Below, piece after piece: positions 24,380 through 52,497 of a stretch of DNA of 64,000 nucleotides. Both the position numbers and the translations under genes were made by a program. The DNA comes from Bacteroides fragilis (GTDB lineage: Bacteria; Bacteroidota; Bacteroidia; Bacteroidales; DTGW01). The stretch covers positions 66,349 to 130,348 of the forward strand of contig CAMDBI010000004.1 in NCBI GenBank assembly GCA_945889005.1, in the 5' to 3' direction. The stretch's first letter is position 1; the number at the start of each line of letters is the position of its first letter. The notes under the pieces are model-generated. The model saw only the letters and a program-made list of their open reading frames with translations. It was not told the DNA's origin and made no database searches.

Positions 24380-24407
24380 ATAAGTTAGTAATAAGAGTTA
24401 GTGAAAG

Positions 24408-24437: not shown

Positions 24438-24465
24438 AAAAGTAAAATCATTAAAAAATAAAAAA

Positions 24466-24813: not shown

Positions 24814-24829
24814 TTATAAACAGACAACA

Positions 24830-24895
24830 GATTATTAGATATTAGAATTGTAGAAAATGATTGTCTAATGGTCTTATTATCTAATATCTAAAATC
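24830..24895 (+). promoter_or_regulatory. 16-bp inverted repeat in the glnK-amtB spacer
   Basis: GATTATTAGATATTAG (24830-24845) vs CTAATATCTAAAATC (24881-24895), 15/16 complementary. A competing AGACAA (24822-24827) / TTGTCT (24861-24866) pairing is possible. Confidence 0.45.
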
Positions 24896-24911
24896 TTAAA
24901 AAATATAAAAT

Positions 24912-26516: not shown

Positions 26517-29500
26517 ATGTGCAAAAAAAAACAAATGAACTCGGTTTTTGAAGACTTAACAACCTATTTGAATAACAAATTAGTTATCCATTTAGTATTG
26601 TTTTTTTTATTATTTAATATTTCAATTTCTTTTGATATACTCAATGCCCAAACTACCTTTACATGGAATGGTGGAACTGGCAATTGGAATACTGCCGGAA
26701 ACTGGTCTAAATCGGGAGGAACCAGTACTTCGACCTGGCCGGGTCAAAATGTTAACCAGAATGATATCGTTATTGTCAATTCTACAGGAACAGTCACTAT
26801 TAACGTTGCTTTTAACAGTAATAGTGTTCAGGATGTAAGTATCAACACAGGAACAGTTACCGGAAACAATGTTACCTGCCTTATCAATGGAAACCTCTCT
26901 GTGGCATCTGGTGCTACTTTTAATATAAACCAAACTGCATTAACTGTTTCGGGCGCCACAAGCATATCAGGAAACCTGACCGATGGAAACAATACAGGTA
27001 CTAACACTTTTGCCGGTCTGGTCACTATCAATTCAGGTGGAAATCTTTCAACTGCAACCAACTCTGTTTATAACTTCAACGGAGGAGTAACCAATAACGG
27101 AACTTTCAACCAGACCGGAACAGGGAATATAACGCTAGTAGTCGGCACAACATTTACAAACAATGCTACAGCAACAATTTCGGGAAGTCTCAATTTTGGA
27201 AACTCAGCATCTACTTTTGTCAATGGCAACGGGGCTTCATTAGCATATTTCAATACCAACCGGTTGATGAACACCAATGGTACTCTTACAGCTACTGCCA
27301 GCAACAATACCATTACTTATAGCCGCAACGGTGCTCAGGATATAATAAATACCGATTATTTCAACCTTGTCCTGGCTGGAAACAATACAAAAACCATTGT
27401 GGGAACAACTACGGTTGACGGTACACTTACTTTTGGCGGCACTGCAACCTTGGCTGTTGGAGCTAACACGATGACAGCAGATGCTGTTGTCAGAAACAAT
27501 GCCATCACGATTACAATATCTACTGGTATATTCACGGTCAATAACGATTTAACCCTCAATGTAGCTGACCCTATCACATTCTCGGGTGCGGGTACTCTCA
27601 ACGTCACTGGTAACCTTACTTGTGGAACACTTACAGGAAATACAGGCACAATCAACATTGGAGGTGACTTTAGTCCAAATGCTTATATCATCAATACTTC
27701 TACAGTAAATGCCAATGGAACCACCATCCAAACACTGGGGCCTGTAAGTTATTACAACCTCCAGATCAATGGCGGAGGAACAAAAGCTTTATCGGGAAAT
27801 ACTACTTTTTCCAACAGCCTGACTCTCAATTCGGGGTTTTTACAATTGGGCAACTACAACCTTACCATCCCCAATAATCTTTCTATTTCCGGAACGATTG
27901 GTTCAGGAGCTTTTATTGAAACCAACGGCACAGGGGTTTTGATCAAACAAGGTACTTCAATCCCTCAATTTGCAATGATCTATCCGGTAGGATCAGGAGG
28001 GTCATACACTCCGGTGCAAATTAGTAGTTTTTCGGCAACAGGTATCATAAGTCCAGCAACTATATCTGTGCGTTCGTCAAACTCTCCGGCTGCCGGAATC
28101 TCAGGTACTCAGCCATTGAACCGGCATTGGGTTACCTCATCTACAAACTTTACCGGAAGTGTCCTGGCAAACATCCGTTTTACCTATGCCTTGTCAGATG
28201 TCCCGGTTGGTAAGGATGCCAACGATTACGAAATCTTGTACAACCCTTCAGGCTCCTGGATAATCCCACTAGGATCGAGCCCCATTGGATACAACCCGAT
28301 TTACTCTTCTGCATCCAACACACTCAATGCAACTTGGTCGGCAACTATTTCCGAAAAAAAAACATTTTACTCGCTCATTTCTGGCGATTGGGACAACAGT
28401 GCGACATGGACATTGGATCCGTCGGGGACTCAGCCCAACAACCCATCGAACCTCACACCAACTACTTCTCCAAATGCCGCTTTCGACGAGGTGGTAATCC
28501 TTTCGGGACGAACAGTTACAGTTAACTCCAATTCAAAAAGCAACGCCAAGCTAACCGTATTGGGTATTCTAAACCTGGGTACAAGCAGTGGGCATAGCTT
28601 TACCTCCATACTGGGGAGCGGTAAAATCCGCTTGGCCGGTGATCAGTTTCCTGCAGGTGATGCTTCCGATTTCGTTTCAGCCGGACAAGGCGAAGGTACT
28701 GTGGAATACTATGGAAACACTTTTAACCTTTCAACTGCACGGACATTCTATAACCTGGATATTGCAATGACTGCAGGTAATTCTGTGTTTCTTTTGTCTA
28801 ATTATACCATTAATGGCAATTTAAATGTCAATTCTGGCACTTTGTCATTAAATAACTCGGTTGCAACTAATGCGCTCACTATTAATATTCTGGGCAATGT
28901 TTCTGTTGGTGCTTCCGGGATCATTCGAACGGGTTCAGCCACTGCACGACATCAGCTAAACCTGTATGGCAATTTTACCAACAACGGCGATGTGCAGTTT
29001 ACCAACCGGGTTGCGGCAAATTATACTGCTGAAGCAACAGATGGGATTGTAGATGTCAATTTCCTAAGCAGCACCAAAGACCAAAGCGTATTGTGCAACG
29101 GACCAAGCAATTTCTATCGGATCGAAATCGATAAAGGTACCGACGACACCTATGTATTGAACCTGGATGCAAACCAGCTTTCTTACTTCAATCTTTTTGG
29201 ATTTGCCAATGAAAACCATGGAAGCATATCAGCTTCGCAACTTACCAACAATCTCAATGCGCTTGGTTTAATTAAAGGGACTGTTCGTATAGGCAATAAT
29301 ATTAACATTCCTCAGCTAAATAATAGTGGAAATTATAACATTTCTGAATCTGCCATGCTTTGGGTAGATGGTGGTACTGTAACCAAAGCAGCCGGTGTAG
29401 CTATTGTGAATTATGGAAAAATAAAAGTTTCTGCGGGAATATTAAACTCACTGGTTTCTAGTGGAATTACCTTGCGTGAAAAAGGTTTTGTATATATTCA

Positions 29501-32500
29501 AGGTGGAACTACTAATATCAACCAGTTGAGAACTTCTGTGATTTCCGGAACCCACATTGGAGGGTATATCCAAACCGATGGTACAATGAATATATTAGGA
29601 GGTTTAACAGATACTGATTATTATACATTTTGTTTGACATACAACAATACCGTATTCAATATGTCAGGTGGTACATTAAAAGTACTTACATCAAACGGAA
29701 GAGGAAGTGTTTTTATTAATTCTGCTCCGGAGAATATCAATGTTACTGGTGGGCATGTAATTGTAGAGGCCAATACAAACCAAAACCCGATTATCACCTC
29801 TACAGCTCCATTTTGGAATCTTAGCTTTAAAAACTCTTCTGGAACTTCTCGCAACTTTGTTCTTCAAGACGGTACATTAGTTGGTGCTACAGATGAAAAT
29901 CTAGCTGCACAACCTTTAAAAGTGTTAAACGATTTTCGGATTTGGGGTACTGAATCAGGTGGTGTCGGATACTCCGCTATTAATTTCAGACCTGTAACCA
30001 GCACTACCAATGTGAACGATGTTTATATAGGAGGTTCATTTTACATTGAAAATGGGGCCTCTTACAGTTCAGTATTTGGAGGAACTTCTCCTTATAATAG
30101 TCTTGCCAATCAGCCGACTCATAAAAATACCACTCATTTTTACTCTACAACGGCTTCTTCAGGTTTGGATACCTTTTATTATGGCAATTCCACTGGAACT
30201 TTAGAGTTGGGAAATATTGAAGTAAACCGCAGTCACGGATCCGAAGTTCGTTTGGTGTCTGCGGCAGCTAGGGCGCTCGAGTCGGTAATGGTAGATGTTA
30301 ATGGCAATATTTCGGTTTTTTCCGGAACATTGAATCAGCACTTGTTTTCGCTGCGAACTTGGGGAAGCATTACTAACAACGATCGGCTTGGCACTTGGTA
30401 CCCGGGAACCACTCCCAACAGGGCTCAAATTCAATTTGCCGATAATCCTGCATTTACACTCAATACAACAACAGGTGCAATTATGGGCAATGTCCAGTTC
30501 AATGTTACTCCACCTTCTCTGGTAACCCTTACAAGCGATATTGTAATTGAACGTGTGGAATATGTCAAGGGTTTGATCTACCTCAAAAAATACAACCTGA
30601 AAATAGATGAACTTTGGAATATGGATGCTGGTTTGTTCGAAAATGCTACCGCTAATAGTATTATGAAAGTTACCAACAATGGCCTGGACCCTGGTTGCAA
30701 TTCTATGATATTTACCAATGGTAAGGCTAGCGACAAAGGTTTGACTTTGAAAATTTCAGGCAACACAACTGTCGAAGGCTTTTCTAGCATTCTGAACAAT
30801 ACTAGTCCCATCTCGTTCCCTATAGGTTTTACTACCGATGGTGGTGCTACCCTATATTTCCGACCTGCCCAAATGAAAGTCAAAGACTTTTCAGACGATG
30901 GCTATGTTACCATTCGTCCGGTATCTGGTGTACTTACTCTCACCGATATAACAGGGGGAGAATTGTTACAACACTATTACCGGGTAAGCCATGCCGGGTT
31001 TTCAACTCTTCCCAATGTAGCTTACCGTTTTTATTACCGCAACCAGAATATCTCCGATGTGGTTGACAAAATCAACCCGGCCACTCAGGAAATCAATTAC
31101 GTTCCCGGCAAAGTGCTTGATCAGTTGCCCTATACCCGAAGCTACGAAACCCACACCGACGATATTATCAAAACTTCCGATACCCGACTGATTGTTTTCA
31201 ATGGAACCAGTTCCGGAGGGGAATTCGATCAGGACGATTTTGTCGGTTTTCTTGTCGAAAACGCCAATTACACCGCCGGACAAATCAACCGCTTTGCTGG
31301 TTCACCACAGATTTTTTACTCCAGAAGAACAGGAGGCGCAATGGCCTGGAACGATGGAAACAACTGGTCATTGGTCGGTTACGATGGTGCTGCTGCCGGA
31401 GATTATCCTCAAGCCGGTGATGTGGCTCGTATAAAAGGATCTGCTATTGCCAACTCGGGTGGTCGCCACTGGTACGATTTGAATGGAACATTTGATATCA
31501 ATACGGCAGAAATATTTTTCGATATTGTCTCTGATCTTACCCCTGCACCCTGGGGACCCAGAATACAGGTAGACGTAGACAGAACAATCAACTCTACAGT
31601 AATCAGAGGGCGTGGAACTCTTTACCTGAGAGTCGATGCCACCAATCAGGCAATGGTCAATGCCGATATCGGGGATTTTGCCAATACGACCGGTTCGGTG
31701 ATTAATTATGTACAGTCTCAAGGCAACAATTCAACCGTGACCATTCCTTCAAACCTTAGTGAATACCCGCGTCTCGATTTTGAAGGAGAAAGCGGCACTG
31801 GGCGTAGGATCCGGATTGCCCACCCGGCTACTGTAAATTATCAATTGGCAGTTGGACAGAATGCAATTTTGGTGGTGGACAACAATGTATCGGTTAAAGG
31901 CAATATTCAGGCCCGAGATAACTTAGATAATGCAAGTATTGAGTTTGGTCAGTCGGGAAGTTGGACGCTTGAAACGATGGGTAATTTAAATTTAGGACCT
32001 TCTGGGGGTACTTATCAATTCGATTTTTCTGTTCAAAATTCAACTCCATCGACTCTGACTCATACTCTGAAAGTTCATGGAAACGTCAACAGGAATGTAA
32101 CTGGTATGTTCGACCTGTACAATGGAACCGGTACTGCAAACAATGCTATTCTCGAACTGTCTGGTACCTCCGATGCTTCGTACAATTACTTTGCAGGCAC
32201 CAACCCCGATCTGTACCGCATCGTGATGAACAAAGGAACCGACAAATCCAATACCTTTACTTTCAACAACCCCTTTACGCTCAATGGCTCGACCAATGCA
32301 ACCCCAAAAGCCATCGAACTTAGAAATGGGACCTTAGTTATGAACCATGCATCCATCAGTTTTAACCTCACTACCGGTGGGGCTGCATTTGAAATTCCTC
32401 AGGAATCGGGGCTTGAAATGAAACTGGGTGCTGCCTTTGCCAATGGCAATTCAGGTATTTTACTCGATGGTTTACTGAAATTGTCGGGTGGTTCTCTAGA

Positions 32501-35500
32501 CATGAGCGACATTGGTACCGGAGGAGACAATTTTATTGAATATTCTGCTTCCGGATTTGCTACTATAGAAGTCAGTAACGGAACTCTTACCGTTGGTAGT
32601 CAGGTTCGCAGAAACATAAACTCCAATATCGGTATACTGAAGTACATACAAAGCGGTGGGTCGGTAATTGTTGGTCGCAATCAGGCATCTATTGCCAACA
32701 GGGGTGTGTTTGAGATTCTTAATAGTGGGAGTAAATTTATTATGACCGGGGGCGACCTATACATTGCTCGTGCCCAGACAGCTCCCACTCTTTCTGCTTT
32801 TTATTTCAATCCGGAAGACATTACCATTACCAGTTCGGCAAATATACATATTGGACATAGCTCCACACCGGCTTCACAGATCATTGGCATCTATGCTGCT
32901 GCCAATATCCCCAAACTGAGGGTCAACAATACTTCCGGCAACAACCCAATAGCTAAACTCGAGATTGTTCCTGCTACCATTACTCAACTCTTCGAAATCG
33001 ATGCCAATGCCACGTTCAATGCCAATGGGCTAGACCTACATCTCGAAGGAAACATGAATGTCCTCGGAAATTTTCAACACAACAACAACAACACTTATTT
33101 CGATGGGTCGTCCGATCAGACTATTACAGGGAATGGCTCTTTCAATTTTTACAACCTAACCAAAACTACCGGGAATAACCTGATCCTGAATCCTGTAAAT
33201 ACCAACCTATCTATTGGCAACAAACTCTCGCTTCAAGCCGGAACATTCACTGACAATGGCAATACTATAACTGTTTTGGGCGACTGCGAAAACGATGCAA
33301 CCCATATCTACGGCGGATCAGGCGATGGAATTTATATGAACGGTACTCAAAATCAAAACATTACCGGCAACGGCACATTCGGAAAAATCACCATCAACAA
33401 CCTGAACGGAATCAACGTTCCTGTCGGGAATCAGATCTCGATTGCCAATTCTTTAAAAATGATGTCGGGGGTCATATATATTAACAAAAATCTTTTGAGC
33501 CTATTGGTTGATGCAACCATTGAGCAAGCATCTCCTTTCACCGGTTACAACATGATTGAAACCAATATTTCCTTTACCGACAATGGGGTGAAAAAGGTCT
33601 TTCCATCTGGTAGTACCCCAAATTTCATCTTCCCAATCGGTAGTGGCGGAAAATACACTCCGGTAACCTTCAACATCACTGCTAATGGCAATAGTACAGG
33701 TTCTGTTACCGTGAAACCTGCCAACGAAATGCATCCGGGTATCGTGGAAGATACCGAAACTTCGACCCAGATCGTTGACAAGGACAATGCCTTGCAATAC
33801 TATTGGACATTAAAGCCATCCGGCATCAATGCAATGGATGCGACTGTTAAAATGCAGTACGCGAGTGAAGATTTAAAAACAACCGCCCCATACACCAGTG
33901 CCGATTACATCAATGCCATGCTCCGCAACGATGGAAACGGCAACTGGAACAAGTTCAACGATTTTGCAGCATTTGACGAAACCAACCGGGAACTCAATTA
34001 TAGTTTTACCGGTGCAACAGACAACGATCTATATGCCGATTACACGGCAGGAGCGGTAGATATTGCTCTAAATGGTGCAATACCCGACAATGTGATTGCC
34101 TACACCGCCAATTCTTCTGGCAATTGGTCAACTGCTGCTACTTGGACACCAAACATCATCAACGGGCCACGTGGAGCGATTGCTCGAATTCCCGCTCCAC
34201 TTTCAATAGATATCACCACAAATGCACAGGCTGTTTACCTGACCGAAATCAATGGCACACTCAACATAGGCACTACTCACAGTCACCGACTTGGAATTGT
34301 AGAAGGTAACGGACGGCTGCACCTCGAAGCAGGGGAACTGCCCGCTGGAGTCTATGATCAATTCTTCTCTGGATCAGGTGGTACAGTGGAGTTTAGCGGA
34401 AGTAACTCCTACGATGTATTGGGAAATACCCTTGCAGTGAACCATCTTACTTTTACAGGTTCGGGCGAAAAACGACTGCCCAATAACAAACTCGACATAC
34501 TGGGCAATTTGCTTATCGATGGTGCCGGACTTTCTTTGAACAATTACCACAACCAAAAAATTGAAATCAAAGGAAATTTCCAACGTACATCTGCTACGTT
34601 TAATGCCGGAACAGGGTCTAATGCAACTGTAATTTTTTCAGGAACTCTTGCTCAACAAATACAAGGTGCTATGACTGCTTCCAATGCTTTTAATAATCTT
34701 GAAGTTAAAAACAACAATGGTATCTCAACCAATGCTGACGTTGAGATCAAAGGTCAGTTAAAACTCACTTCGGGCTTGATTAACACTGGTTCCAATAATT
34801 TTACAATAAAGCAGGGTGCATCAGTTAGTCCTGCCAATGGATTGGCAACTTCATTTGTAAATGGCACTCTTACCAAAGAAATGCTCAATGGACAAAGCTT
34901 TAGTTTTCCGGTGGGTAATAATGCATCTAACTTAGGAACCATCGGCTTGCTCAATGTTAACGGGCCTTCGGGATTACAAAATTGGCGAACTACCTATACG
35001 TATGCCAATCCAAATACTATTGGTAATACCGACGATTTTCTGGCACCTGTCAATTCTGTAAGTGAAACAGAATACTGGAGGGTGCAAGCCCCAACAGGAG
35101 GAGGCTCTAAAATAAGCATCCGTCTCGATGGTTCCAGCGATATAGCCAATGCCCATGCTTCAGATCTTTATAACCTTAGGGTGGTTGGTTGGGATCCGGT
35201 GGATGCCCGCTGGGAAGTTGTGGGATCTTCAGCTACTGTTTCAGGAACAAATCTTTTCGGGACAGTCTCTACTTCCGGTTTTGTCAATTATGGCACATAC
35301 AGCTATTTCACCCTAGCATCGGTAACCCCGGTTGTGTCAGGAACCGCTAGTATTACCAGTAGCAATATATCAATATGTAACGGACAGAGTACCAGTATTG
35401 TGGTTTCCCTTACAGGCACTTCGCCTTGGACCATTACCTACACTGCAAATGGCAATCCAATTAGTTCGCCTGTAATAAATTCTAGTCCCTACACATTTGC

Positions 35501-37289
35501 TGTTTCACCTACTACAACTACCACATATACTCTTACTGCAGTTACAGCAGGCGGAATTGCTGGAAGCGTGATTGCGCCATTATCTCAGATAGTTACAGTA
35601 AACCCGATTCCTGTAGTTTCTCTTTCTAGCAGCGATGCCGACAATACCTTCTGTTTAGGCACCAACATCACATTTACAGCCACAGCAGGGCTTTCGAATT
35701 ATCAGTTTCGGGTCAATGGCAGTATTGTTTATACAAGTGCATCACGGACTTACTCTACCAATTCACTTATTAACGGACAATCGGTAGATGTTGTAGCGAC
35801 TCATACTGGTGGGTGTTCCAACATTAGTAACGCAATTGCCAATACTGTAATATCTGTTCCGGCTGCACCTATTTCAATTTCGGGTTCTCCGGCTGTGTGT
35901 AGCAGTACCCTTAATGTACCATATAACATTGTTGCTATACCAGGTGCTTCCAGTTACATTTGGACTGTTCCATCTGGAGCTTCTATAGACGCTCCCGTTA
36001 ACACGGCTGCAATTACTGTCGATTTTGGAACCAACAGCGGCAATATTACTGCTAGAGGTTCCAATACCTGTGGCAATGGTCCAGTTGCCACTCTGGCAGT
36101 TATAGTCTCTGCTGCTTCTCCGGTTGATGAAACAGTAGCTGCGATCGGTGGATCTGCCAGTATTTGTGAAGCAACGGTCAATAGTATTTATACAGTTTCT
36201 GCAGTTACCAATGCTACTGCCTATATTTGGAAATATAGCGGAACTGGTGCATCTCAGTATGGTTCAGGTACAGTAATAGATAATGGCTCAGGTGTTTCTA
36301 TTGGCAGCCCGGGAACTATTGCGATCGACTTTGCCGCAGGTGCTACAAGTGGTACATTGTCTGTTACTGGAACAAACGGATGTAGTACCCAATCTACTCC
36401 TGCTACTTATGCAATAAGCATCAACCCTAAACCAACTGCAACAATTAACCCGGCAACTCCTTCGACCTGCGAAAATATTACAATTGTCGTAAACGGGGTA
36501 CCTGCCGGAGGAAGCGGAACATATACCACACACTTGTGGACAGGCACTGGTGTTGCTTACCTCAACAATGTTAATGCCCAGAGTCCCGATTTCAATAGCA
36601 GTACACCTAATAATTACACCATTACATATACTGTTACCGACAACAACGGCTGTGTCGGTTCAGCCAATGCAACCGCTACAGTATATGCTGCGCCGATGGC
36701 CGACGCTGGTTCCGACTTGGCATCGTGCAATGGATCTGCAAATATAGGTATGGGTGGGGCATCTGCCACAGGATCATATAGTTTAGCTGTTTGGACAAGT
36801 GGAACAGGTTCCTGGTCGCAAAACCCAAGCCCTGAGAACGCTTTGTATACTCCAACTGGGCAAATAGGCTCAACCATAGCGACCCTGACACTGACCGGCA
36901 CCAATGGTTGCCCCAATGCCACCGATACACGAACCATCAATTGGGGTATAGTGCCTTCAATCTCTCTAACTCAATCAAATCCTGAGATTTGTACTGGTAC
37001 TCTTAGTGCAGGATTTACATATTCTGGCACGTCAGGTAATCCCGACCAATACAGTATCGACTATAGTGCAACTGCCGAAGCTCAGACATTTATCGATGTT
37101 AGCAACCAGATTTTGAATCCTGGCTCAATCAATGCAATAGTACCAGGAACTGCTGCTGCAGGAACATATATTGCTGATCTTACCTTGCGTTATGCTCCTG
37201 CAGGTTGTGTGAGTGTTAACTACCCAGTTAATATCGTGATTAAACAAGCTCCGGTTACCGGACCATTGTATCGAAAACCAAATAATTAA
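26517..37289 (+). CDS. Giant secreted surface protein A (3590 aa), with beta-helix-like repeat modules and C-terminal Ig-like repeats. No recognisable T9SS CTD. Ends in the PVTGPLYRKPNN tail.
   Basis: Signal-like LVIHLVLFFLLFNISISFDILNAQ. Four super-modules each open with G-[DN]-W-x(3-7)-W: TWNGGTGNWNTAGNWS, SGDWDNSATWT, AMAWNDGNNWS, SGNWSTAATWT. Asn/Thr/Gly/Ser-rich repeats. About 650 aa of Cys-containing Ig-like repeats (ICNGQS..GTSPWTITYT..TYTLTAV). An alternative start at 26535 is possible. Confidence 0.85.
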   Translation: MCKKKQMNSVFEDLTTYLNNKLVIHLVLFFLLFNISISFDILNAQTTFTWNGGTGNWNTAGNWSKSGGTSTSTWPGQNVNQNDIVIVNSTGTVTINVAFNSNSVQDVSINTGTVTGNNVTCLINGNLSVASGATFNINQTALTVSGATSISGNLTDGNNTGTNTFAGLVTINSGGNLSTATNSVYNFNGGVTNNGTFNQTGTGNITLVVGTTFTNNATATISGSLNFGNSASTFVNGNGASLAYFNTNRLMNTNGTLTATASNNTITYSRNGAQDIINTDYFNLVLAGNNTKTIVGTTTVDGTLTFGGTATLAVGANTMTADAVVRNNAITITISTGIFTVNNDLTLNVADPITFSGAGTLNVTGNLTCGTLTGNTGTINIGGDFSPNAYIINTSTVNANGTTIQTLGPVSYYNLQINGGGTKALSGNTTFSNSLTLNSGFLQLGNYNLTIPNNLSISGTIGSGAFIETNGTGVLIKQGTSIPQFAMIYPVGSGGSYTPVQISSFSATGIISPATISVRSSNSPAAGISGTQPLNRHWVTSSTNFTGSVLANIRFTYALSDVPVGKDANDYEILYNPSGSWIIPLGSSPIGYNPIYSSASNTLNATWSATISEKKTFYSLISGDWDNSATWTLDPSGTQPNNPSNLTPTTSPNAAFDEVVILSGRTVTVNSNSKSNAKLTVLGILNLGTSSGHSFTSILGSGKIRLAGDQFPAGDASDFVSAGQGEGTVEYYGNTFNLSTARTFYNLDIAMTAGNSVFLLSNYTINGNLNVNSGTLSLNNSVATNALTINILGNVSVGASGIIRTGSATARHQLNLYGNFTNNGDVQFTNRVAANYTAEATDGIVDVNFLSSTKDQSVLCNGPSNFYRIEIDKGTDDTYVLNLDANQLSYFNLFGFANENHGSISASQLTNNLNALGLIKGTVRIGNNINIPQLNNSGNYNISESAMLWVDGGTVTKAAGVAIVNYGKIKVSAGILNSLVSSGITLREKGFVYIQGGTTNINQLRTSVISGTHIGGYIQTDGTMNILGGLTDTDYYTFCLTYNNTVFNMSGGTLKVLTSNGRGSVFINSAPENINVTGGHVIVEANTNQNPIITSTAPFWNLSFKNSSGTSRNFVLQDGTLVGATDENLAAQPLKVLNDFRIWGTESGGVGYSAINFRPVTSTTNVNDVYIGGSFYIENGASYSSVFGGTSPYNSLANQPTHKNTTHFYSTTASSGLDTFYYGNSTGTLELGNIEVNRSHGSEVRLVSAAARALESVMVDVNGNISVFSGTLNQHLFSLRTWGSITNNDRLGTWYPGTTPNRAQIQFADNPAFTLNTTTGAIMGNVQFNVTPPSLVTLTSDIVIERVEYVKGLIYLKKYNLKIDELWNMDAGLFENATANSIMKVTNNGLDPGCNSMIFTNGKASDKGLTLKISGNTTVEGFSSILNNTSPISFPIGFTTDGGATLYFRPAQMKVKDFSDDGYVTIRPVSGVLTLTDITGGELLQHYYRVSHAGFSTLPNVAYRFYYRNQNISDVVDKINPATQEINYVPGKVLDQLPYTRSYETHTDDIIKTSDTRLIVFNGTSSGGEFDQDDFVGFLVENANYTAGQINRFAGSPQIFYSRRTGGAMAWNDGNNWSLVGYDGAAAGDYPQAGDVARIKGSAIANSGGRHWYDLNGTFDINTAEIFFDIVSDLTPAPWGPRIQVDVDRTINSTVIRGRGTLYLRVDATNQAMVNADIGDFANTTGSVINYVQSQGNNSTVTIPSNLSEYPRLDFEGESGTGRRIRIAHPATVNYQLAVGQNAILVVDNNVSVKGNIQARDNLDNASIEFGQSGSWTLETMGNLNLGPSGGTYQFDFSVQNSTPSTLTHTLKVHGNVNRNVTGMFDLYNGTGTANNAILELSGTSDASYNYFAGTNPDLYRIVMNKGTDKSNTFTFNNPFTLNGSTNATPKAIELRNGTLVMNHASISFNLTTGGAAFEIPQESGLEMKLGAAFANGNSGILLDGLLKLSGGSLDMSDIGTGGDNFIEYSASGFATIEVSNGTLTVGSQVRRNINSNIGILKYIQSGGSVIVGRNQASIANRGVFEILNSGSKFIMTGGDLYIARAQTAPTLSAFYFNPEDITITSSANIHIGHSSTPASQIIGIYAAANIPKLRVNNTSGNNPIAKLEIVPATITQLFEIDANATFNANGLDLHLEGNMNVLGNFQHNNNNTYFDGSSDQTITGNGSFNFYNLTKTTGNNLILNPVNTNLSIGNKLSLQAGTFTDNGNTITVLGDCENDATHIYGGSGDGIYMNGTQNQNITGNGTFGKITINNLNGINVPVGNQISIANSLKMMSGVIYINKNLLSLLVDATIEQASPFTGYNMIETNISFTDNGVKKVFPSGSTPNFIFPIGSGGKYTPVTFNITANGNSTGSVTVKPANEMHPGIVEDTETSTQIVDKDNALQYYWTLKPSGINAMDATVKMQYASEDLKTTAPYTSADYINAMLRNDGNGNWNKFNDFAAFDETNRELNYSFTGATDNDLYADYTAGAVDIALNGAIPDNVIAYTANSSGNWSTAATWTPNIINGPRGAIARIPAPLSIDITTNAQAVYLTEINGTLNIGTTHSHRLGIVEGNGRLHLEAGELPAGVYDQFFSGSGGTVEFSGSNSYDVLGNTLAVNHLTFTGSGEKRLPNNKLDILGNLLIDGAGLSLNNYHNQKIEIKGNFQRTSATFNAGTGSNATVIFSGTLAQQIQGAMTASNAFNNLEVKNNNGISTNADVEIKGQLKLTSGLINTGSNNFTIKQGASVSPANGLATSFVNGTLTKEMLNGQSFSFPVGNNASNLGTIGLLNVNGPSGLQNWRTTYTYANPNTIGNTDDFLAPVNSVSETEYWRVQAPTGGGSKISIRLDGSSDIANAHASDLYNLRVVGWDPVDARWEVVGSSATVSGTNLFGTVSTSGFVNYGTYSYFTLASVTPVVSGTASITSSNISICNGQSTSIVVSLTGTSPWTITYTANGNPISSPVINSSPYTFAVSPTTTTTYTLTAVTAGGIAGSVIAPLSQIVTVNPIPVVSLSSSDADNTFCLGTNITFTATAGLSNYQFRVNGSIVYTSASRTYSTNSLINGQSVDVVATHTGGCSNISNAIANTVISVPAAPISISGSPAVCSSTLNVPYNIVAIPGASSYIWTVPSGASIDAPVNTAAITVDFGTNSGNITARGSNTCGNGPVATLAVIVSAASPVDETVAAIGGSASICEATVNSIYTVSAVTNATAYIWKYSGTGASQYGSGTVIDNGSGVSIGSPGTIAIDFAAGATSGTLSVTGTNGCSTQSTPATYAISINPKPTATINPATPSTCENITIVVNGVPAGGSGTYTTHLWTGTGVAYLNNVNAQSPDFNSSTPNNYTITYTVTDNNGCVGSANATATVYAAPMADAGSDLASCNGSANIGMGGASATGSYSLAVWTSGTGSWSQNPSPENALYTPTGQIGSTIATLTLTGTNGCPNATDTRTINWGIVPSISLTQSNPEICTGTLSAGFTYSGTSGNPDQYSIDYSATAEAQTFIDVSNQILNPGSINAIVPGTAAAGTYIADLTLRYAPAGCVSVNYPVNIVIKQAPVTGPLYRKPNN

Positions 37290-37470: not shown

Positions 37471-37606
37471 TTAGATTTAAATTATTAAACTAAAATTTAT
37501 CAATAATTTATTGAGTTTCAAGAAACTTTATTCTTATTATTTCGTATTATTTTCTTATTGGAAAACAGATGTCAATGTTAAAACTAAAAAAAGTAGGCAA
37601 ATAATC

Positions 37607-40600
37607 ATGGTCAAGCCATTGCTAAAATATACGATACATTCAAACATTATGCTGCCTGATCTGCAAGGACTTAAGCGGCTTTTGTTGTTATTAATTGGGG
37701 TGGTAGTTTTCGTTGGTGGAGTTTTAGGACAAACAGTTGGCGATTACCAGACTAGAGCATCCGGAAACTGGAATGCAAATACAACATGGCAGGTTTATAC
37801 AGCCGGATCATGGGTAAATTGTAATTCCGGAGATTATCCTGGTGTTGCATCAGGGGCAGGTACAGTTAATATATTAAATAATCATACCGTTACTATTACA
37901 TCTAATGTGCCAAATAGCATAGGCGCATTAAGTATAAATGGGGGAGGTAGTGATTCTTATATTCAATTTAATCCCGGTGTATCTTTAACTGTTACAGGTC
38001 AAACATATTTGAATTCAAATAGCAATAATGATGAGAAATCAATAACTGTTGATGCAGGTATATTTAGTACCGGTTCAATATCGTCAAATTCAGATTCAAA
38101 TGGAGATACTAGAGACGCGTATATAAGAATATCTACAGGTACGGTTACTGTTGATGGAAATATAGATTTGAATAGTACAAGTTTGCGTACATATATCCGT
38201 TTTACAGATAATGGAACTTTAAATGTAGGGGGAACTATTACAGGCGGAGGTATTACAAGTACAGTTGGTGGAGGGGCAAATGCACCCACTTCCGGCACCG
38301 TAAATTACAACAATGCAGCTCAAACAGTAGGGACATATACATACAATAATCTTACTCTTTCAGGTTCAGGGCTTAAAACAACTACCGGAGTAACCGTAAA
38401 TGGGATTCTTTCTATGGAAGGAACAGCTACAGCATCCGTTGTTCCTAATTATGGGACAGGTGCTACTCTTCAATATGCCGGTAGTGCATTACAAACAACC
38501 GGGGTTGAATTTCCAACATCCCCATCAGCTATACCTAATCTTACTATCAATAATGCAAATGGCGTTAATTTAAACAGTTCTAAAACTGTTTCTGGATCTT
38601 TGGATCTAAAACAAGGATCTTTGTCAATTGGAGCCAATACATTGACTCTTAGTGGAACTACAACCCGAAATGCTCCCGGAACAGGTACAATCACTGGAAA
38701 TGCATCTGGAAATATTAGTATTGGTGGAACAGGTGCTTTTGGTACTTTATTTTTTACCGGAGGAAGTAATACTATTAACAATTTAACAATAAATAGGACT
38801 GCATCGGGAACAATTACTTTAGGTACCGATCTGTCAGTTGCCGGTACTTTAACTTCTACTGCGGGTACTATAAACACGGCTTACAATATTAATATTAACA
38901 ATACAGATGCGTGTGGTGCAGGAGTTGTCAATGCTACAGCCGGTACAATTACTTATAGCGGCACAACACAAAATATTATTTCTGGTTCCTATTATATACT
39001 TACAAAGAACAATGCGTCAGCAACTGCAAGTTTATGTAGTAACATTAGAATCAATAATATACTTAATGTAGGTGCCGGTATTATTAACTTAGGAACATAT
39101 AATATTACTATTTCTGAAGGAGCTTCTATTACGGGTGCGTTTAGTACTTCAAATATGCTCCAGACCTCAAGTACAGGTATGTTGATCAAAGAAGGTAATG
39201 CTTCGACAGATTTTACTATGGTTTATCCAGTTGGAACAGTCTCGAACTATACTCCAATGACCATAAGCTCTTTAACCGCAACTGTTGCGGGAACAGGTTC
39301 TGTTTCTGTTCGTGCGGTTGCGGCGGTTGCTCCCGGTCCTCCGGCAGCCAATAGTACCGATTTGCAAAAATATTGGTCAGTTACATCAAACAATCTTTCG
39401 GCAATAAATGCCAATGTAAATTTCGTATATAACAACCCCGGTGAGGTTGGAAGCGGGGGTAATCAGACAATTTATATACCTTATTTATATTCGGGAGCTG
39501 CTTGGAGTATGCCTGCCGGTTCGAGTGCTGCCGGAGTAAATCCATTTTCAGTTACTGGAACAAGTGTATTGACAGGAGTTTGGACAGCTCGCGAAAAACC
39601 CAATATTGTTACTTATTACAGTTATCAGTCGGGTAGTTGGCACAATCCTACAACATGGACTACAGACCCTTCGGGTACACTGTCGGTTAATTCGGCTGTA
39701 CCCGATGCAGACGACAAGGTGGTTGTTCTCAATGGCCGCTTGATTTATACCAATTCAAATGGTATAACAATTGGGTCGACTCAAATTAACGATGGGGGTT
39801 CATTGGATTTAAAAGCTACGATTAATCATAATTTGGGCGATGTTCGAGGTAAAGGTATTTTGCGTTTGCAATCCAATACATTCCCGGCGGGTACATTTAC
39901 CGAATTCGAATCGACTGCCGGGGGTACTGTTGAGTATTACAATAATGCCGATTTCAACATTACGCACGCAAACTACAACAATGTAATCTTCAATATGTCT
40001 GCTTCAAATATTGTTGCATATATTTTAAGCAATATTACTATTAACGGAAACCTTACCATTACAAGAGGTACATTGAATATCAATAACAATTCGGCAACAA
40101 CACGACTTGATGTAACTGTAACCGGAAATGTAACTGTAGCTACCAATGGAAATATAAGAACAGGTACAGGAAGTACAGGAGCTGTTTCGGCTACTTCTGC
40201 ACACCGTTTTATTATTAAAGGAAATTTTACAAACAATGGAACGGCTTACTTTACAAATTTAACTGCTGCTGATTATATTAACTATCAAAACAACCGAGTC
40301 GAAGTAGTTTTTAATAATCCTTATGCTGACCAGAATGTAGTAATAAACGGAGTAACCCGTTTTTACAGAATTGAAATTGATAAAGGTATTGATCAAACTT
40401 ATGTGTTGAATATTGATGCAACGGCAGCCAATTTATTTTATTTGTGGGGTGTAAACAATCGAATGGGCGTTACTCCTTCACCTGATGCTCCCAATATCAG
40501 ACAGGACAATGCATTAGGACTACAGGCCGGAACAGTTCGGTTAGGAAGTAATATTACTCTTCCTTCATTAGCTGAAGAAAATGTTTCCGACGACGATTTA

Positions 40601-43600
40601 AACTATCATGTCGATGAAGATGCCTGTTTATGGATTGATGGAGCAACTGTTACACATACAACAAGTTTCAATGGAGGAAGCTCAAATTCGTTTGTGCTAT
40701 ATGGCAAGTTAAGAATATCAAATCCTGTAAGTTCATTTAATATTAATACTTTACATGGTATTGTGATGCGTGCCAATGCTGCTATTCATATTGAAAACGG
40801 TTCATTATCTGTACCTTGTATAAGAACATCGACAGTTTCCGGAGCTCATAGGGGGTCGTTCAATATGTCCGGAGGAACGTTGACAATCACCGGTAATTTA
40901 AGTGGTAGTGACAGTCATGCAAGTTTCTCATTTACATATCCTCAAATGAGTTTCAGAATGTCGGGAGGGTCGATGGTTATCAATCAGGCCGGTGATGGAG
41001 GAAACGGCTTGGAGAAAAGTTTGGTAATTGGTTCATTAGCAGAGAACAATGAAGTTACCGGTGGAACAATTCGTATCATAGCAGCCAATAGAAATGCAAA
41101 TTTTACAAGCACTGCCCCATTTTGGAATTTGCAAGTAGATGCTGCCAATACAACATATACTTCTCAAATTGTTGATTTTAACGGATCCTCAAGTGCATCG
41201 TCTGTTTTAGCTCAACCATTGATAGTTAAAAACGATTTTACCTTACAAAATTTTGCAGTATTTAATTCCGGTAATCAGAATGTATCTATAGGGCACGATT
41301 TTACAATGAGTGCAAGTTCTGAGTATAACTGCGGCACCAATACCACTACTTTTAATGGCACGGGTGGACAACGTTTTACCAATGCCGGTTCTATTCAAAC
41401 CGGAACAGGTTTAAATAATCTCGCGTTTTCAAACTCGTCAAATACCGATATAATTTCAGCAAATATAGTCGTTAGAGGAAACCTTACTATCGATAACAAT
41501 TGTTATGTAAATGATGTTGGCCGTACAATCTCGGTTACCGGCAATATTACTAATTTGGGTATACATACCAGTCAGGCAGGTGGTGGGATTGAACTTAATG
41601 CAACAACCGATCAAACAATCGGAGGAAATGGAAATGGTTCGTTTGGAACATTGGTTATCAGTAAATCATCCGGAACATGCTCATTTTTAGCCAATCAGTC
41701 TATTTCCGGTAACTTGCGTTTGGCAACAGGTATACTTGATATAGGTATACATAAGCTTACTTTAGCAGCAACATCAAATATATACGATGCTCTTTCGCCT
41801 GCTACCACGGCAATATTTTCAGCTACCAAAATGATTCGTACGGCTGGTAACTTTAGCGATGGCGGTATTAATAAGTCTTACAATGCGACCGGCAGTTTCG
41901 TGTACCCGGTTGGTACTGCAACAGATTATACACCTGCCACTATTACATTTAACACAGCTCCGGTTACATGGGGAAGTGTTACCATAAAACCGGTAACACG
42001 CGATGTACCCTTTGTAACATCAACCACAACATCGTTGAACTATTATTGGGATGTTTCGAGTAACGGAATAACCGGCATTGCTGCAAACGGAGTAAGTCAT
42101 TCATACAAATTTGTCGATGCCGATGTAAGGGAAGCCGTTGCTGGCGATATAAACAGTTATGTTCCGGGGGCATACAGACCCAATAGCTGGAGCTTTATTC
42201 CCGACCCTGCAGAAGTTACTCCTGCACCCGGCAATTTAATCCGATTTAACAATATTAATTATATCGATGGTAGTTTTACTGCCGGACGCACCGATGCTTT
42301 TCAAAGTACGGTAGTGTATTATAGCCGCCAAACAGGCGATTGGGATCAAACATCGACTTGGTCGACCGATAGTGTTGGAGGGCCTATTGCAGGTACTTTA
42401 CCTCAATCGAATACTCCGGTTGTTATTGGGAAAGCTGCTATGAGCCACACAATTACTATGCCTGTCGGGTTCAACAATGTTACTATTGGAAGCTTGCAAA
42501 TAAATGAAAATTCAATTCTCGATATTGCAAGCACTACAGGTCATAACTTTGGTGCAGTACCTTATGGTCAAGTTATTGGTACGGGTACATTACGTATTTC
42601 ATCGGTGGCGAGTTCTGTTGTATTTCCTGATGGCGATTTTGGAAAATTCCTCAATACAGGTGGTGGTACTGTTGAATATTACACAAATGGTACAAATTTT
42701 ACTTTGCCGGATTCTAATTTTTATTATAATAACTTAATACTTAATCCGGCAAACGGGCAGACAATTACAATGCCCAATACCGATTTGCGAATATTCAGAA
42801 CACTAACAAAAACAGGTGCCGGAACATGTAATTTGAACTCTGTAGCAGTCAGAGCATTACAAATAGATACCAATCTGTTAGTTACAACTGGTACATTAAT
42901 GTTTATGAATAATACCTTTGCTCAAACAATTAATGTAAATGGCAACATTGAAGTGAGTAACGGTGCTGTTTTCGATGTAAACAATATTACCAATGCGACC
43001 AATATCATTAACTTAAGCGGCAATTTGGTAAATAATGGTACATTCAGAATGTACAACGGCAATAGTGCCAGGGTTTGTAATGTCAATTTTATTGGCAATG
43101 TCGATAAACAAATAAGTGGGAGTGGAGCTACTACGCAATTTAACATTTTAACAGTAAACAAAGGGGAGTCGCGCAATACAATTTTAGATGTAACTGCATC
43201 GAACCTTGCATTAAATACAACATTAGCAACAGCACTTATATTGAACAATGGAACATTCCGATTGTCGAGTCCGACTGTTTCGTTAACATTGGCAAATTCG
43301 GGTTCATTCAGAGTTCCAAACACGGGATGCCTTTCGGCAAATGGCGGAACTATTAATATTGGGGGGGCGGCAGCTACCAATGCTACCGATTTGTATCTCG
43401 ATGGTCGATTAGAAGTATATGCAGGAACTGTAAATATAGGAACCTTAGGCAACAATTTGAATAACGATATTGAATACTCGTCGGCTGGTAGTCCTGAATT
43501 GGTTGTTTCGGGTACAGGTATCCTTTTTGTTAATGGGCAAATACGTAGGCCTTTAACTATTACAACAGGTTCGTTGCGATATACACAAGGAGGCTCATCG

Positions 43601-47642: not shown

Positions 47643-48464
47643 ATGAAAAAACAATCTAAATTATTGAATATGAAAAAGTTTAGCAAATTATTAACAATCG
47701 TTGCCCTCGTGGCAATGGGAATGACCCAGGCTTGGGGTCAAGAAGTGGCAATGCCTGCAAATTTTCAACAGCATGGTAATACAAGTGCTGGAATTCCATC
47801 AGTTCCTGCTTCTCTCGAACTTACCGACTCTGTTACAATTAACTCTTCGCTTCAATATTGGGTACAACCTGATGCTGCAGTTCTTACCGATCCAAGTACT
47901 TTTACTTGGGGTACCACAATTGCTTTAGCATCTCAAACTGCAGGGGGTACATCAAACTTAGCAACTTTCAATTTTACAGCAGAAGGTACAGGTAATATTA
48001 CAGTTCGAGAAGATTCACCTGCTCCTAATTCTTGCACAGGCTCTACTACTACTATTCCTGTAAGAGTTATTGCTGCTCCAGATGTTACAGCCGCGACATT
48101 TTCATCCTTAGCATGTCCAGCAGGAACTGATGGTACATACACATTAGCCGGACCAACAGCAACCTTAACAATTGCATGCTCTGTTTTAGGTAATAAAGGT
48201 GTTTCTTTGCACTATTCACTTTCTGGTCCTACAGGGTTTACAACTGTTGGTTCAACATTAGCAACTTTAGGTAATGGTAATACGATTGATTTGTCAGGCA
48301 TAAACTTAACACATTCAGGTACATATACATTAACAATTATTGATATTACTGACCGTATTGCCACAAAATCGGGATTACTAACAATAGCTGATGGTACAAC
48401 TGCAACATTTGTTGTAAACAGAGTTCCTGTTACTGGTCCAGTATATCACTTACCAAATAATTAA
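47643..48464 (+). CDS. Small secreted paralogue 1 (273 aa), ending in PVTGPVYHLPNN
   Basis: Signal peptide LLTIVALVAMGMTQAWGQ. Motifs LQYWVQPDA, STFTWGT, ITVREDSPAPNSCTGSTTTIPVRVIAAP, TYTLTIIDITDRIATKS. The tail matches both giants. Confidence 0.8.
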   Translation: MKKQSKLLNMKKFSKLLTIVALVAMGMTQAWGQEVAMPANFQQHGNTSAGIPSVPASLELTDSVTINSSLQYWVQPDAAVLTDPSTFTWGTTIALASQTAGGTSNLATFNFTAEGTGNITVREDSPAPNSCTGSTTTIPVRVIAAPDVTAATFSSLACPAGTDGTYTLAGPTATLTIACSVLGNKGVSLHYSLSGPTGFTTVGSTLATLGNGNTIDLSGINLTHSGTYTLTIIDITDRIATKSGLLTIADGTTATFVVNRVPVTGPVYHLPNN

Positions 48465-52374: not shown

Positions 52375-52497
52375 TATTTTTGTTTGTCTTGATATTTAGT
52401 CGATTAATCAAAATTGTCGGATAGTTGATGTAAATCACCATTGTTTTTAGAACAAAGTTATATACCTTGCGTAGAATTTAGCAAGAATGCAAATATC

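What the first reader, a model, noticed from the sequence alone, without database searches (positions are those of the whole stretch)
37212..37289. Shared extreme C-terminal tail (beta-strand + P-V-T-G-P-x-Y-[RH]-x-P-N-[NQ]) on both giants and a small protein, with degenerate versions on three more
Seen: protein A ends VNIVIKQAPVTGPLYRKPNN. Protein B ends SIVTVNKTPVTGPMYRQPNQ (about 47339-47398). Small paralogue 1 ends TFVVNRVPVTGPVYHLPNN (48405-48464). The next three end NIYILPTPTTGTINHVAP, RFFVKKAPKPKTYHIKNK and YIYVMPTTAEPKIIHLRDLNKK. These keep the pattern of hydrophobic strand, Pro, about 4 residues, aromatic/aliphatic, His/Arg, then a polar end. The three strong copies use different codons (ccggttaccggaccattgtatcga / cctgttacaggacctatgtatcgt / cctgttactggtccagtatatcac). 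Conservation is therefore at the peptide level and is not due to recent DNA duplication. No hydrophobic helix follows, so this is not an LPXTG/PEP-CTERM-type anchor, and it is far shorter than a T9SS CTD. Inference: it could be a new sorting or assembly signal. Possibilities include a donated strand for fibre polymerisation, or a docking peptide for the type-B-CTD protein, the PorP/SprF protein or a processing enzyme.
Basis: partly seen in the sequence, partly recalled or inferred. Interest (0 to 1): 0.82.

Follow-up and report, generated by a model that had tools for sequence, protein, structure and literature searches.

The report
Conserved C-terminal tail linked to T9SS
A 12-16-residue peptide (P-x-T-G-P-I-Y-H/R-x-P-N) sits only at the very end of hundreds of otherwise unrelated surface-type proteins from uncultured Bacteroidales. 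These proteins lack a normal type IX secretion domain and are encoded next to a secreted anchor protein and its outer-membrane carrier, so the peptide is probably an undescribed attachment or sorting signal.

Summary
All six tails are at the stated ORF ends. The strict motif occurs three times in the six-frame translation, each time one residue before a stop.

An unbiased metagenome scan with no stop codon in the pattern found the motif 0-5 residues before a stop in 122 of 125 matches. All synonymous codons are used at the fixed positions. No internal copy occurs in about 51,000 residues of related giant proteins.

A profile search finds 854 cluster representatives of the small-protein family, and 143 of 150 small members examined carry the tail. 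The tail follows different terminal domains in giants and small proteins. Related giants carry ordinary type A or B T9SS CTDs at that position.

Small tail proteins are followed by a ~340-aa type-B-CTD protein in 35 of 36 loci with enough downstream DNA, and by both that protein and PorP/SprF in 33 of 36. No Pfam or NCBIfam model or searchable paper describes the family or the motif.

Best reading: a short linear docking or assembly signal that couples CTD-less Ig-repeat proteins to a type-B-CTD anchor and PorP/SprF carrier. The mechanism is inferred, not shown. A classical donor strand is disfavoured, and cleavage at an LPETG-like P-x-T-G site remains open.

The parts
26517..37289 (+). Giant A, 3590 aa. 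It has a Sec signal peptide, repeats largely unannotated by Pfam, PKD_6 near the C-terminus, no T9SS CTD, and ends in the tail.
   Evidence: PKD_6 3.4e-22 at residues 3115-3195. Searches find no CTD model. One search shows it is paralogous to giant B over most of its length (30-36% identity).
37251..37286 (+). Tail of giant A: P-V-T-G-P-L-Y-R-K-P-N-N. The stop codon is at 37287-37289.
37511..47398 (+). Giant B, ORF of 3295 aa. The likely start is Met at 37649, followed by a signal peptide (MLPDLQGLKRLLLLLIGVVVFVGGVLGQ). It has no CTD and ends in the tail.
47360..47395 (+). Tail of giant B: P-V-T-G-P-M-Y-R-Q-P-N-Q.
   Evidence: In one search, profile positions 262-280 of the small-1 model align to residues 3277-3295 only.
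47643..48464 (+). Small tail protein 1, 273 aa. It has a signal peptide and two Ig-like domains. The last strand is residues 248-258 and the tail is 259-273.
   Evidence: (AF2 pLDDT 88.7).
48426..48461 (+). Tail of small 1: P-V-T-G-P-V-Y-H-L-P-N-N.
48517..49398 (+). Small tail protein 2, 293 aa, a paralogue of small 1. Its 'small-2 type' tail LPTPTTGTINHVAP is at 49354-49395.
   Evidence: 5.9e-19; the same tail subtype occurs at the same operon position elsewhere.
49448..50257 (+). Small paralogue 3, 269 aa. Its degenerate tail APKPKTYHIKNK is at 50219-50254 and retains Y-H-x-x-N.
   Evidence: 8.5e-16.
50278..51276 (+). Small paralogue 4, 332 aa. Its most degenerate tail MPTTAEPKIIHLRDLNKK is at 51220-51273 and retains His.
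   Evidence: 2e-10.
51313..52374 (+). Type-B-CTD protein, 353 aa. It has Ig/PKD-like domains followed by a CHU_C domain (residues 264-353) and has no tail. It is the proposed surface anchor or adaptor.
   Evidence: In one search its N-terminal domain aligns with the N-terminal domain of the small proteins (hhalign probability 58%, E 9.7e-5).
52441..53490 (+). PorP/SprF-family outer-membrane carrier. It ends in the conserved sequence ...NARRYRWLNRY.

Best explanation
The tail is a strictly C-terminal short linear motif: the last Ig strand, then x-P-x-T-G-P-Φ-Y-[H/R]-Φ-P-N, then 0-5 residues. It marks Sec-exported Ig/PKD-repeat proteins that have no T9SS C-terminal domain.

I propose it is a docking or assembly signal. 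Through it, these proteins are captured by the partner pair encoded immediately downstream: a ~340-aa type-B-CTD protein and its PorP/SprF outer-membrane carrier. The capture site would be either the N-terminal Ig/PKD-like domains of the CTD protein and of the small proteins, or the carrier itself. The T9SS-delivered anchor would then hold a hetero-oligomeric surface structure: anchor, then small tail protein(s), then optional giant adhesins. Capture could happen in the periplasm (co-export) or after export.

**Shown:**
- the motif exists;
- it is exclusively terminal;
- it is under peptide-level selection;
- it sits on different terminal domains;
- relatives carry ordinary CTDs at that position;
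- it is tightly linked to the gene pair.

**Inferred:**
- physical binding;
- the identity of the partner;
- surface localisation.
For: - **Terminal exclusivity.** (122 of 125 matches within 0-5 aa of a stop; 0 internal copies in 50,963 aa).
- **Deep conservation with saturated synonymous sites.**. Frequencies: P 82%, T 79%, G 91%, Y 83%, H 84% or R 15%, P 81%. N was the anchor used to align the tails, so its 100% is by construction.
- **The tail is a portable module.** Giants do not match the small-protein profile (E=7) except over the tail, and their last domain is PKD-like. Giant A's last 220 aa have almost no homologues in a 5.8-billion-protein collection, while the tail is constant. The domain preceding the tail varies among giants.
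- **Relatives carry CTDs.** Giants built from the same repeat domain end in ordinary type A or type B CTDs.
- **Linkage.** The order small-T, (small-t), CHU_C protein, PorP is found in 4 of 4 long contigs. Of 36 small tail proteins with at least 3.5 kb downstream, 35 are followed by CHU_C and 33 by both. No other gene is conserved in the neighbourhood.
- **Donor/acceptor complementarity.**
  - Giants have a tail but no small-type N-terminal domain at their N-terminus.
  - Small proteins have both.
  - The CTD protein has a homologous N-terminal domain but no tail.
- **Tail subtypes track protein class and operon position across clades.**
  - Small 1: [AT]-P-[VTS]-T-G-P-I-Y-H.
  - Small 2: T-[QSG]-[PKT]-I-[QK]-H-x-x-N.
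  - Giants: [IL]-P-E-T-G-P-[QA]-Y-[HR].
- **Established background.** Type B CTD substrates need a cognate, usually adjacent, PorP/SprF carrier, which also anchors them on the surface (PMC12618676, PMC9143113, PMC10994853).
Against: - No binding, localisation or export data exist. All carriers are uncultured MAGs.
- No multimer prediction could be run.
- Co-export of non-CTD partners has no precedent for the T9SS in the literature searched.
- AF2 gives the tail residues 261-270 a pLDDT of ~89 in a monomer. This could mean the tail packs intramolecularly.
- Some tail-bearing giants are not next to a module (L018, L023, L043, L045).
- The homology between the small-protein and CTD-protein N-terminal domains is only moderately supported (probability 58%).
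- The fixed T-G and the LPETG-like form in giants fit a cleavage site as well as a docking site.
Confidence: 0.5

Rival explanations
1. The tail is a processing or transpeptidation signal. P-x-T-G is cut, as in LPXTG, by an unlinked periplasmic or surface enzyme such as a PorU-like T9SS 'sortase' or another peptidase. The new C-terminus is then joined to a partner protein or glycolipid, and P-I-Y-H-I-P-N acts as the recognition and leaving group.
For: - T (79%) and G (91%) are among the most conserved positions.
- In giants the motif is typically [IL]-P-E-T-G, matching the canonical sortase pentapeptide, as I recall it.
- The tail must be terminal, but 0-5 residues of any kind may follow N. 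That suits a leaving group.
- Small proteins have an invariant Lys in a D-R-I-x-x-K-S motif that could serve as an acceptor. This last point is speculative.
Against: - No hydrophobic segment or basic tail follows the motif.
- No sortase, peptidase or transpeptidase gene is conserved in over 40 loci. The S41 peptidase in the window is absent from the other loci.
- Residues after T-G are as conserved as T-G itself, unlike LPXTG signals.
- Leu or Ile before the Pro is not conserved in the small proteins.
Confidence: 0.15
2. The tail is itself a minimal T9SS-related export signal, possibly a remnant or mimic of the first conserved residues of a type B CTD. It would be read directly by the PorP/SprF carrier or the translocon, without the type-B-CTD protein acting as adaptor.
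For: - In the wider family the tail reads Y-H-I-P-N-x-[FWY]-x-x*. Type B CTDs in the same modules begin [x]-I-P-[NT]-[AV]-F-T-P-N-G-D-G.
- The tail sits where relatives have a CTD.
- It is linked to PorP/SprF.
Against: - The resemblance covers only about 5 residues. The window's own tails stop before the aromatic residue.
- Published work shows that all five conserved motifs of the SprB type B CTD are needed for secretion, and previous studies suggest up to 235 residues for efficient secretion (PMC12618676).
- No family member with a full CTD continuing from the tail was seen among 150 representatives.
- This reading does not explain why a separate CTD protein is always encoded alongside.
Confidence: 0.12
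3. The tail is a donor strand for fibre polymerisation, as in type V or chaperone-usher pili. It would complete an incomplete Ig fold of the next subunit.
For: - The gene organisation resembles a pilus operon: several paralogous small subunits, large 'tip' proteins and an anchor.
- Tail subtypes are specific to operon position.
Against: - AF2 models both Ig-like domains of small 1 with seven strands, and models the tail as coil.
- Three Pro and one Gly in 11 residues fit poorly with a regular beta-strand.
- The signal peptides are SPI-type with no lipobox Cys, and there are no FimA/Mfa Pfam hits.
- Foldseek finds only generic tandem Ig proteins.
Confidence: 0.08
4. The tail is a purely intramolecular structural cap of the last domain, with no sorting or assembly role. 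The linkage to the T9SS genes reflects only shared ancestry of the operon.
For: The tail has high pLDDT (~89) in the monomer model.
Against: - The same tail is on non-homologous terminal domains.
- It is never internal, even though similar domains are repeated many times in giants.
- The tail is conserved much more strongly than the domains it follows.
Confidence: 0.07

Closest known systems
Type B CTD substrate with its cognate PorP/SprF carrier (SprB-SprF of Flavobacterium johnsoniae; PG1035-PorP of Porphyromonas gingivalis)
   Same: The window has an adjacent type-B-CTD gene and PorP/SprF gene. Giant Ig-repeat proteins are encoded just upstream, as in sprCDBF. The carrier is expected to anchor the CTD protein on the surface (PMC9143113, PMC12618676).
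   Different: Here the giant proteins carry no CTD. The CTD sits on a separate ~340-aa protein. The giants and the small paralogues end instead in a 12-16-residue motif. The PorP ends in NARRYRWLNRY, not the Cys-x-Cys C-tail that links SprF to GldK (PMC12635249).
LPXTG sortase signals and sortase-assembled Gram-positive pili
   Same: Both have a P-x-T-G core near the C-terminus. Giants elsewhere often read [IL]-P-E-T-G. Both involve operons of several Ig-fold subunits.
   Different: No membrane-spanning segment or basic tail follows the motif. No sortase gene is seen in the 19 window ORFs outside the cluster that were scanned with Pfam, or in the annotated gene lists of the four long related contigs. 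The residues downstream, P-I-Y-H-I-P-N, are strongly conserved. The host is a diderm Bacteroidota organism.
Type V pili (FimA/Mfa) of Bacteroidota
   Same: They belong to the same phylum. They use Ig-like subunits, C-terminal elements mediate subunit-subunit contacts, and they have an anchor subunit.
   Different: Type V pilins are lipoproteins processed at an N-terminal Arg, and they assemble by strand exchange. The proteins here have SPI signal peptides, no lipobox, no FimA/Mfa domains and complete Ig folds.
Hitchhiker co-export of signal-less partners (for example the Tat pathway)
   Same: It offers a conceptual model in which a protein without the export signal travels bound to a signal-bearing partner through a translocon that accepts folded proteins.
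   Different: This has not been described for the T9SS in the literature searched. Nothing here shows co-export.

Membership tests
T9SS type A CTD (Por_Secre_tail PF18962 / TIGR04183) | A C-terminal Ig-like beta-sandwich domain of ~70-100 aa that matches the family models. | tested here: not met
   Searches give no hit at E<=0.1 for the four small proteins or for the last 599 aa of each giant. The conserved element is only 12-16 aa.
T9SS type B CTD (CHU_C PF13585 / TIGR04131) | A C-terminal domain of ~85 aa with the conserved motifs (I-P-N-A-F-T-P-N-G-D-G ... V-T-L-I-R). | tested here: not met
   Searches show that only the protein at 51313-52374 has it. Tail proteins share at most I-P-N-x-[FWY] with the first residues of the domain. 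That is too short to count as membership.
Type B CTD / PorP-SprF cognate gene pair | A type-B-CTD gene lies immediately next to a PorP/SprF-family gene. | tested here: met
   for the window. for related loci (33 of 36).
LPXTG (sortase) sorting signal | An L-P-x-T-G pentapeptide. | tested here: inconclusive
   P-x-T-G is present, with T at 79% and G at 91%. The position before P is A, T, V or K in the window and I or L in many giants elsewhere.
LPXTG (sortase) sorting signal | A hydrophobic membrane-spanning segment and a positively charged tail after the pentapeptide. | tested here: not met
   Only 7-12 mostly polar residues follow T-G.
LPXTG (sortase) sorting signal | A sortase encoded in the genome, usually nearby. 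| not tested
   No sortase domain was found in the 19 window ORFs outside the cluster scanned with Pfam, or in the gene lists of the four long related contigs. Whole genomes were not searched.
PEP-CTERM / exosortase-type signals | A short motif followed by a transmembrane helix and a basic cluster. | tested here: not met
   No hydrophobic stretch follows the motif.
Type V pilins (FimA/Mfa) | A lipoprotein signal peptide with Cys, and FimA/Mfa-type domains. | tested here: not met
   The signal peptides end ...AWGQ...LFAQ...VHAQ and ...LYAQ with no Cys. There are no such Pfam hits.
Donor-strand-complemented pilins (chaperone-usher type) | An incomplete Ig fold lacking the final strand, completed by a neighbour's strand. 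| tested here: inconclusive
   AF2 models two seven-stranded domains and a coil tail.

The most novel reading that the evidence does not exclude
The tail is a new class of T9SS-linked sorting signal. In this reading a ~12-residue C-terminal peptide replaces the ~90-residue CTD. It lets CTD-less proteins, including adhesins of more than 3,000 aa, reach and stay on the cell surface by binding a small dedicated type-B-CTD adaptor protein and its PorP/SprF carrier. This would be adaptor-mediated, 'split-signal' type IX secretion or assembly.
Probability: 0.35. Interest if true: 0.85.

Novelty: new variant of a known kind. Interest (0 to 1): 0.72.

Why it matters
Current T9SS models hold that every substrate carries its own folded CTD, and that type B substrates pair one-to-one with a PorP/SprF carrier.

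This finding shows a widespread family in anaerobic Bacteroidales: 854 representatives of 50%-identity clusters. In it the giant and small Ig-repeat proteins lack a CTD and share a tiny, strictly terminal peptide. A separate small CTD protein and a carrier are always encoded alongside.

If the tail is the link, it would reveal adaptor-mediated cargo recruitment or a T9SS-anchored multi-subunit fibre. It would also give a simple sequence rule for finding such cargo in genomes, and a short portable tag for surface display in Bacteroidota. Even if it proves to be a cleavage site, it would point to a sortase-like step with a defined motif in a diderm phylum.

Tried and rejected
- **Profile libraries.** Pfam, NCBIfam and PADLOC scans of the small proteins gave nothing significant.
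- **Sequence search of the PDB with the family profile.** Nothing below E 0.4.
- **Foldseek of the AF2 model against the PDB.** Only generic tandem Ig proteins, such as intimin, SiiE, S-layer proteins and GhpA fragments.
- **Literature search for the motif strings.** No relevant paper.
- **Literature search for T9SS piggyback or hitchhiking.** Nothing.
- **Homologue search with the last 220 aa of giant A, intended to build an alignment for a second structure prediction.** It returned one weak hit, so the second AF2 job was not used.
- **The six non-Bacteroidota hits of the genome scan.** I first suspected a conserved RNA, but Rfam found none. They are the antisense of the Dxs motif LFxELGFRYxGPxDGH, which I recognised from memory, and are off-target.
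- **The idea that the tail is a truncated type B CTD.** I looked for family members in which the tail continues into a full CTD and found none among 150 representatives or in the CTD junctions of related giants. It is kept only as a weak lead.
- **The nearby S41 C-terminal processing peptidase as a dedicated tail enzyme.** Rejected because it is absent from the other loci.
- **Multimer prediction, and inspection of model coordinates.** Not possible with the tools available.

Full report
**1. Observation**

ORF listing and translation confirm a run of eight co-directional genes:
- giant A (26517-37289, 3590 aa);
- giant B (37511-47398, probable start at 37649);
- four small paralogues (47643-48464, 48517-49398, 49448-50257, 50278-51276);
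- a type-B-CTD protein (51313-52374; CHU_C 8.5e-21, TIGR04131 1.9e-17);
- a PorP/SprF protein (52441-53490; PF11751 1.1e-65, TIGR03519 7.6e-69).

A six-frame regex scan of the whole window finds P.TGP.[YF][RH].PN three times. Each copy is one residue before a stop, and none lies inside the ~6,900 residues of the giants. The three DNA tails are 69-77% identical, while the preceding 60 nt are 30-40% identical. Recent duplication therefore does not explain the similarity.

**2. The tail is conserved and strictly terminal**

- Thirty homologues of small 1, all from uncultured Bacteroidales, end in P-x-T-G-P-[IM]-Y-H-x-P-N-x. P262, H269 and N272 are invariant.
- A DNA-pattern scan of one genome per GTDB species for P-x-T-G-P-x-Y-[HRQ]-x-P-N-x-T[AG][AG] gave 49 loci.
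  - Forty-three are Bacteroidales or Bacteroidota MAGs. There the motif always ends an ORF of 175 to more than 2,600 aa.
  - The six hits from other phyla are the antisense strand of a conserved dxs motif.
- A second scan, of metagenome contigs, used the motif without any stop codon in the pattern. Of 125 matches, 122 lie 0-5 residues before a stop (77 with four residues after N, 27 with one). The three exceptions are short junk ORFs.
- Across 151 distinct tails, all synonymous codons are used at every fixed position.
- The fuller consensus is: last strand, N-P-x-P-x-T-G-P-I-Y-H-I-P-N-x-[FWY]-x-x*. The window carries a short version that ends one residue after N.

**3. Size of the family and bias check**

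- A profile of the 30 small-1 homologues was searched against 1.84 billion representatives. It found 854 proteins at E<=1e-3 and 413 at E<=1e-10.
- Among the 150 proteins under 480 aa in hand, 143 end in [aromatic]-[HR]-x-x-N plus 0-4 residues.
- Frequencies: P 82%, T 79%, G 91%, P 60%, I 62%, Y 83%, H 84% or R 15%, P 81%.
- Four representatives carry a different ending, SPKPTLKTSAV[RQK].
- Large proteins matched only through many repeats of the N-terminal-type domain. Most of those examined end in ordinary type A-like or type B-like CTD sequences, read by eye. Related architectures therefore carry a CTD where these proteins carry the tail.
- No tail-like motif occurs inside 50,963 residues of those large proteins.

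**4. The tail is a module, not part of one fold**

- The window's small 2-4 match the small-1 profile end to end or nearly so (5.9e-19, 8.5e-16, 2e-10). The giants do not (E=7). In giant B only the last 19 residues align to the tail positions, and the preceding domain aligns to the N-terminal-type domain.
- The last 220 aa of giant A have essentially no homologues in a 5.8-billion-protein collection.
- Local BLAST shows that the domain preceding the tail differs among giants.
- AF2 of small 1 (pLDDT 88.7, pTM 0.75) gives two seven-stranded Ig-like domains. The last strand is 248-258 and the tail is coil. pLDDT is ~89 for residues 261-270 and 61 for the last three.
- Foldseek finds only generic tandem Ig proteins. 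The PDB sequence search finds nothing.

**5. Genomic linkage**

- Four long contigs that carry small-1 homologues all show the order small-T, second small protein (tails such as LPTPNTQPIKHIKNIGW*), CHU_C protein (~335-357 aa), PorP_SprF. The flanks are unrelated housekeeping genes.
- A fifth contig has a 3,197-aa PKD_6 giant ending NPLPVTGPVYREPNY* upstream.
- I built home-made HMMs for the CHU_C protein, its CTD and PorP, and searched all fetched loci.
  - Of 36 small tail proteins with at least 3.5 kb of downstream DNA, 35 are followed within 4 kb by the CHU_C protein and 33 by both genes.
  - Giants lie upstream of the small genes or, in some cases, elsewhere (L018, L023, L043, L045).
  - No protease, sortase or other gene is conserved in the neighbourhood.
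- The N-terminal domain of the small proteins aligns with the N-terminal domain of the CHU_C protein (hhalign probability 58%, E 9.7e-5).
- Tail subtypes follow protein class across clades:
  - small 1: [AT]-P-[VTS]-T-G-P-I-Y-H;
  - small 2: T-[QSG]-[PKT]-I-[QK]-H-x-x-N;
  - giants: [IL]-P-E-T-G-P-[QA]-Y-[HR].

**6. Mechanism**

*Established knowledge.* T9SS substrates need a folded CTD. Type B CTD substrates need a cognate PorP/SprF carrier, usually encoded next door, which then anchors them on the surface (PMC12618676, PMC9143113, PMC10994853).

*Best-supported reading.* The tail is a short linear docking or assembly motif that attaches CTD-less proteins to the type-B-CTD protein and PorP/SprF pair. 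Four points support it.
- The proteins have Sec signal peptides but no CTD.
- The tail sits where relatives have a CTD.
- The only conserved partners are a small CTD protein and its carrier.
- The distribution of features is complementary: giants have a tail only; small proteins have an acceptor-type N-domain plus a tail; the CTD protein has the N-domain, no tail, and a CTD.

Whether capture happens before export (co-export) or after is unknown. I put this reading at about 0.5.

*Donor strand.* A true donor strand is disfavoured. The conserved part is rich in Pro and Gly, AF2 models it as coil, and both domains appear complete.

*Cleavage.* A cleavage or transpeptidation site remains a serious rival. 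T-G is highly conserved and giants often read [IL]-P-E-T-G. Against it, no membrane anchor follows the motif and no enzyme is linked.

*CTD mimic.* A direct mimic or remnant of the start of a type B CTD (I-P-N-x-F) is a weak lead. All five conserved motifs of the SprB type B CTD are required for secretion (PMC12618676).

*Structural cap.* A purely structural cap is unlikely, because the tail is on non-homologous domains and is never internal.

**7. Comparison and novelty**

- The gene pair is a bona fide type-B-CTD/PorP module (membership met).
- The tail proteins fail the membership tests for type A and type B CTDs, for LPXTG and PEP-CTERM signals (no transmembrane segment), and for type V pilins (no lipobox, no FimA/Mfa domains).
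- No Pfam (2025) or NCBIfam (2026) model covers the small proteins.
- The motif strings do not appear in the searchable literature.
- I rate it a new variant of a known kind: a T9SS type B module with a previously undescribed C-terminal peptide signal on its associated proteins. It would be closer to categorically new if adaptor-mediated export is demonstrated.

**8. Limits**

- All evidence is comparative or predicted.
- All carriers are uncultured.
- No multimer modelling or coordinate inspection was possible.
- The DNA scans were pattern-defined, although the profile search in section 3 was not.
- The linkage statistics use my own HMMs built from five sequences each.

Noticed in passing
window 53452-53487 (C-terminus of PorP/SprF, 52441-53490); also L001, L003, L004 and many of L007-L054: The module's PorP/SprF proteins end in a near-invariant basic and aromatic C-tail, ...FG[DE]NARRYRWLNRY*. 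It lies outside the TIGR03519 model, which ends at residue 336 of 349. It has no Cys-x-Cys, unlike the SprF C-tail that is disulfide-linked to GldK (PMC12635249). It may be a different periplasmic coupling motif.
   Followed up: partly
P0126, P0139, P0151, P0165: Four representatives of the small-protein family lack the tail. They end instead in a conserved alternative sequence...VYVTSPKPTLKTSAV[RQK]*. This is possibly a second tail type.
   Followed up: no
window 55863-57461 (-): An S41 C-terminal processing peptidase with a PDZ domain lies 2.4 kb beyond the cluster. It is tempting as a tail-recognising enzyme, but it is not present near the module in the four long related contigs.
   Followed up: partly
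window 53589-53969 (-), 53999-54547 (-), 57514-57909 (-): Two SiaC-family phosphoprotein genes and a DUF6272 gene lie directly downstream of the cluster on the opposite strand. They could belong to a partner-switching regulatory module.
   Followed up: no
L008, L010, L024, L044, L048, L055: The six non-Bacteroidota hits to the DNA pattern are the reverse strand of the conserved Dxs motif LFxELGFRY[VI]GPVDGH, not tails. Rfam found no RNA there.
   Followed up: yes
window 4220-5239 (+), with 2398-4217 (+): A RES-domain protein (1.5e-16) is preceded by two ORFs with no Pfam match. This could be a toxin-antitoxin-like or defence locus.
   Followed up: no
window 23699-26309 (+): A porin-like Gcw_chp protein lies directly upstream of giant A. 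Between it and giant A lie two ORFs that by eye look like a PII (GlnK)-type protein and an ammonium transporter. These are unrelated housekeeping genes, which marks the 5' boundary of the cluster.
   Followed up: partly
window 26517-47398: Giants A and B are paralogues (30-36% identity over about 2,800 aligned residues) but diverge over their last ~90-370 residues apart from the shared tail. Giant B has no Pfam hit at all, and giant A has only PKD_6.
   Followed up: partly
window 61854-61868 (+): The sequence ...GIYRKPNT** resembles the end of the tail, but it lies in an 11-codon open stretch. It is a chance match.
   Followed up: yes
alignment A1, small 1 residues 237-242 (window about 48351-48368): A near-invariant T-D-R-I-x-x-K-S motif (D237, R238, I239 and K242 invariant) forms a short helix just before the last strand in all small-family members. 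It is absent from the giants. Its role relative to the tail is unknown.
   Followed up: no
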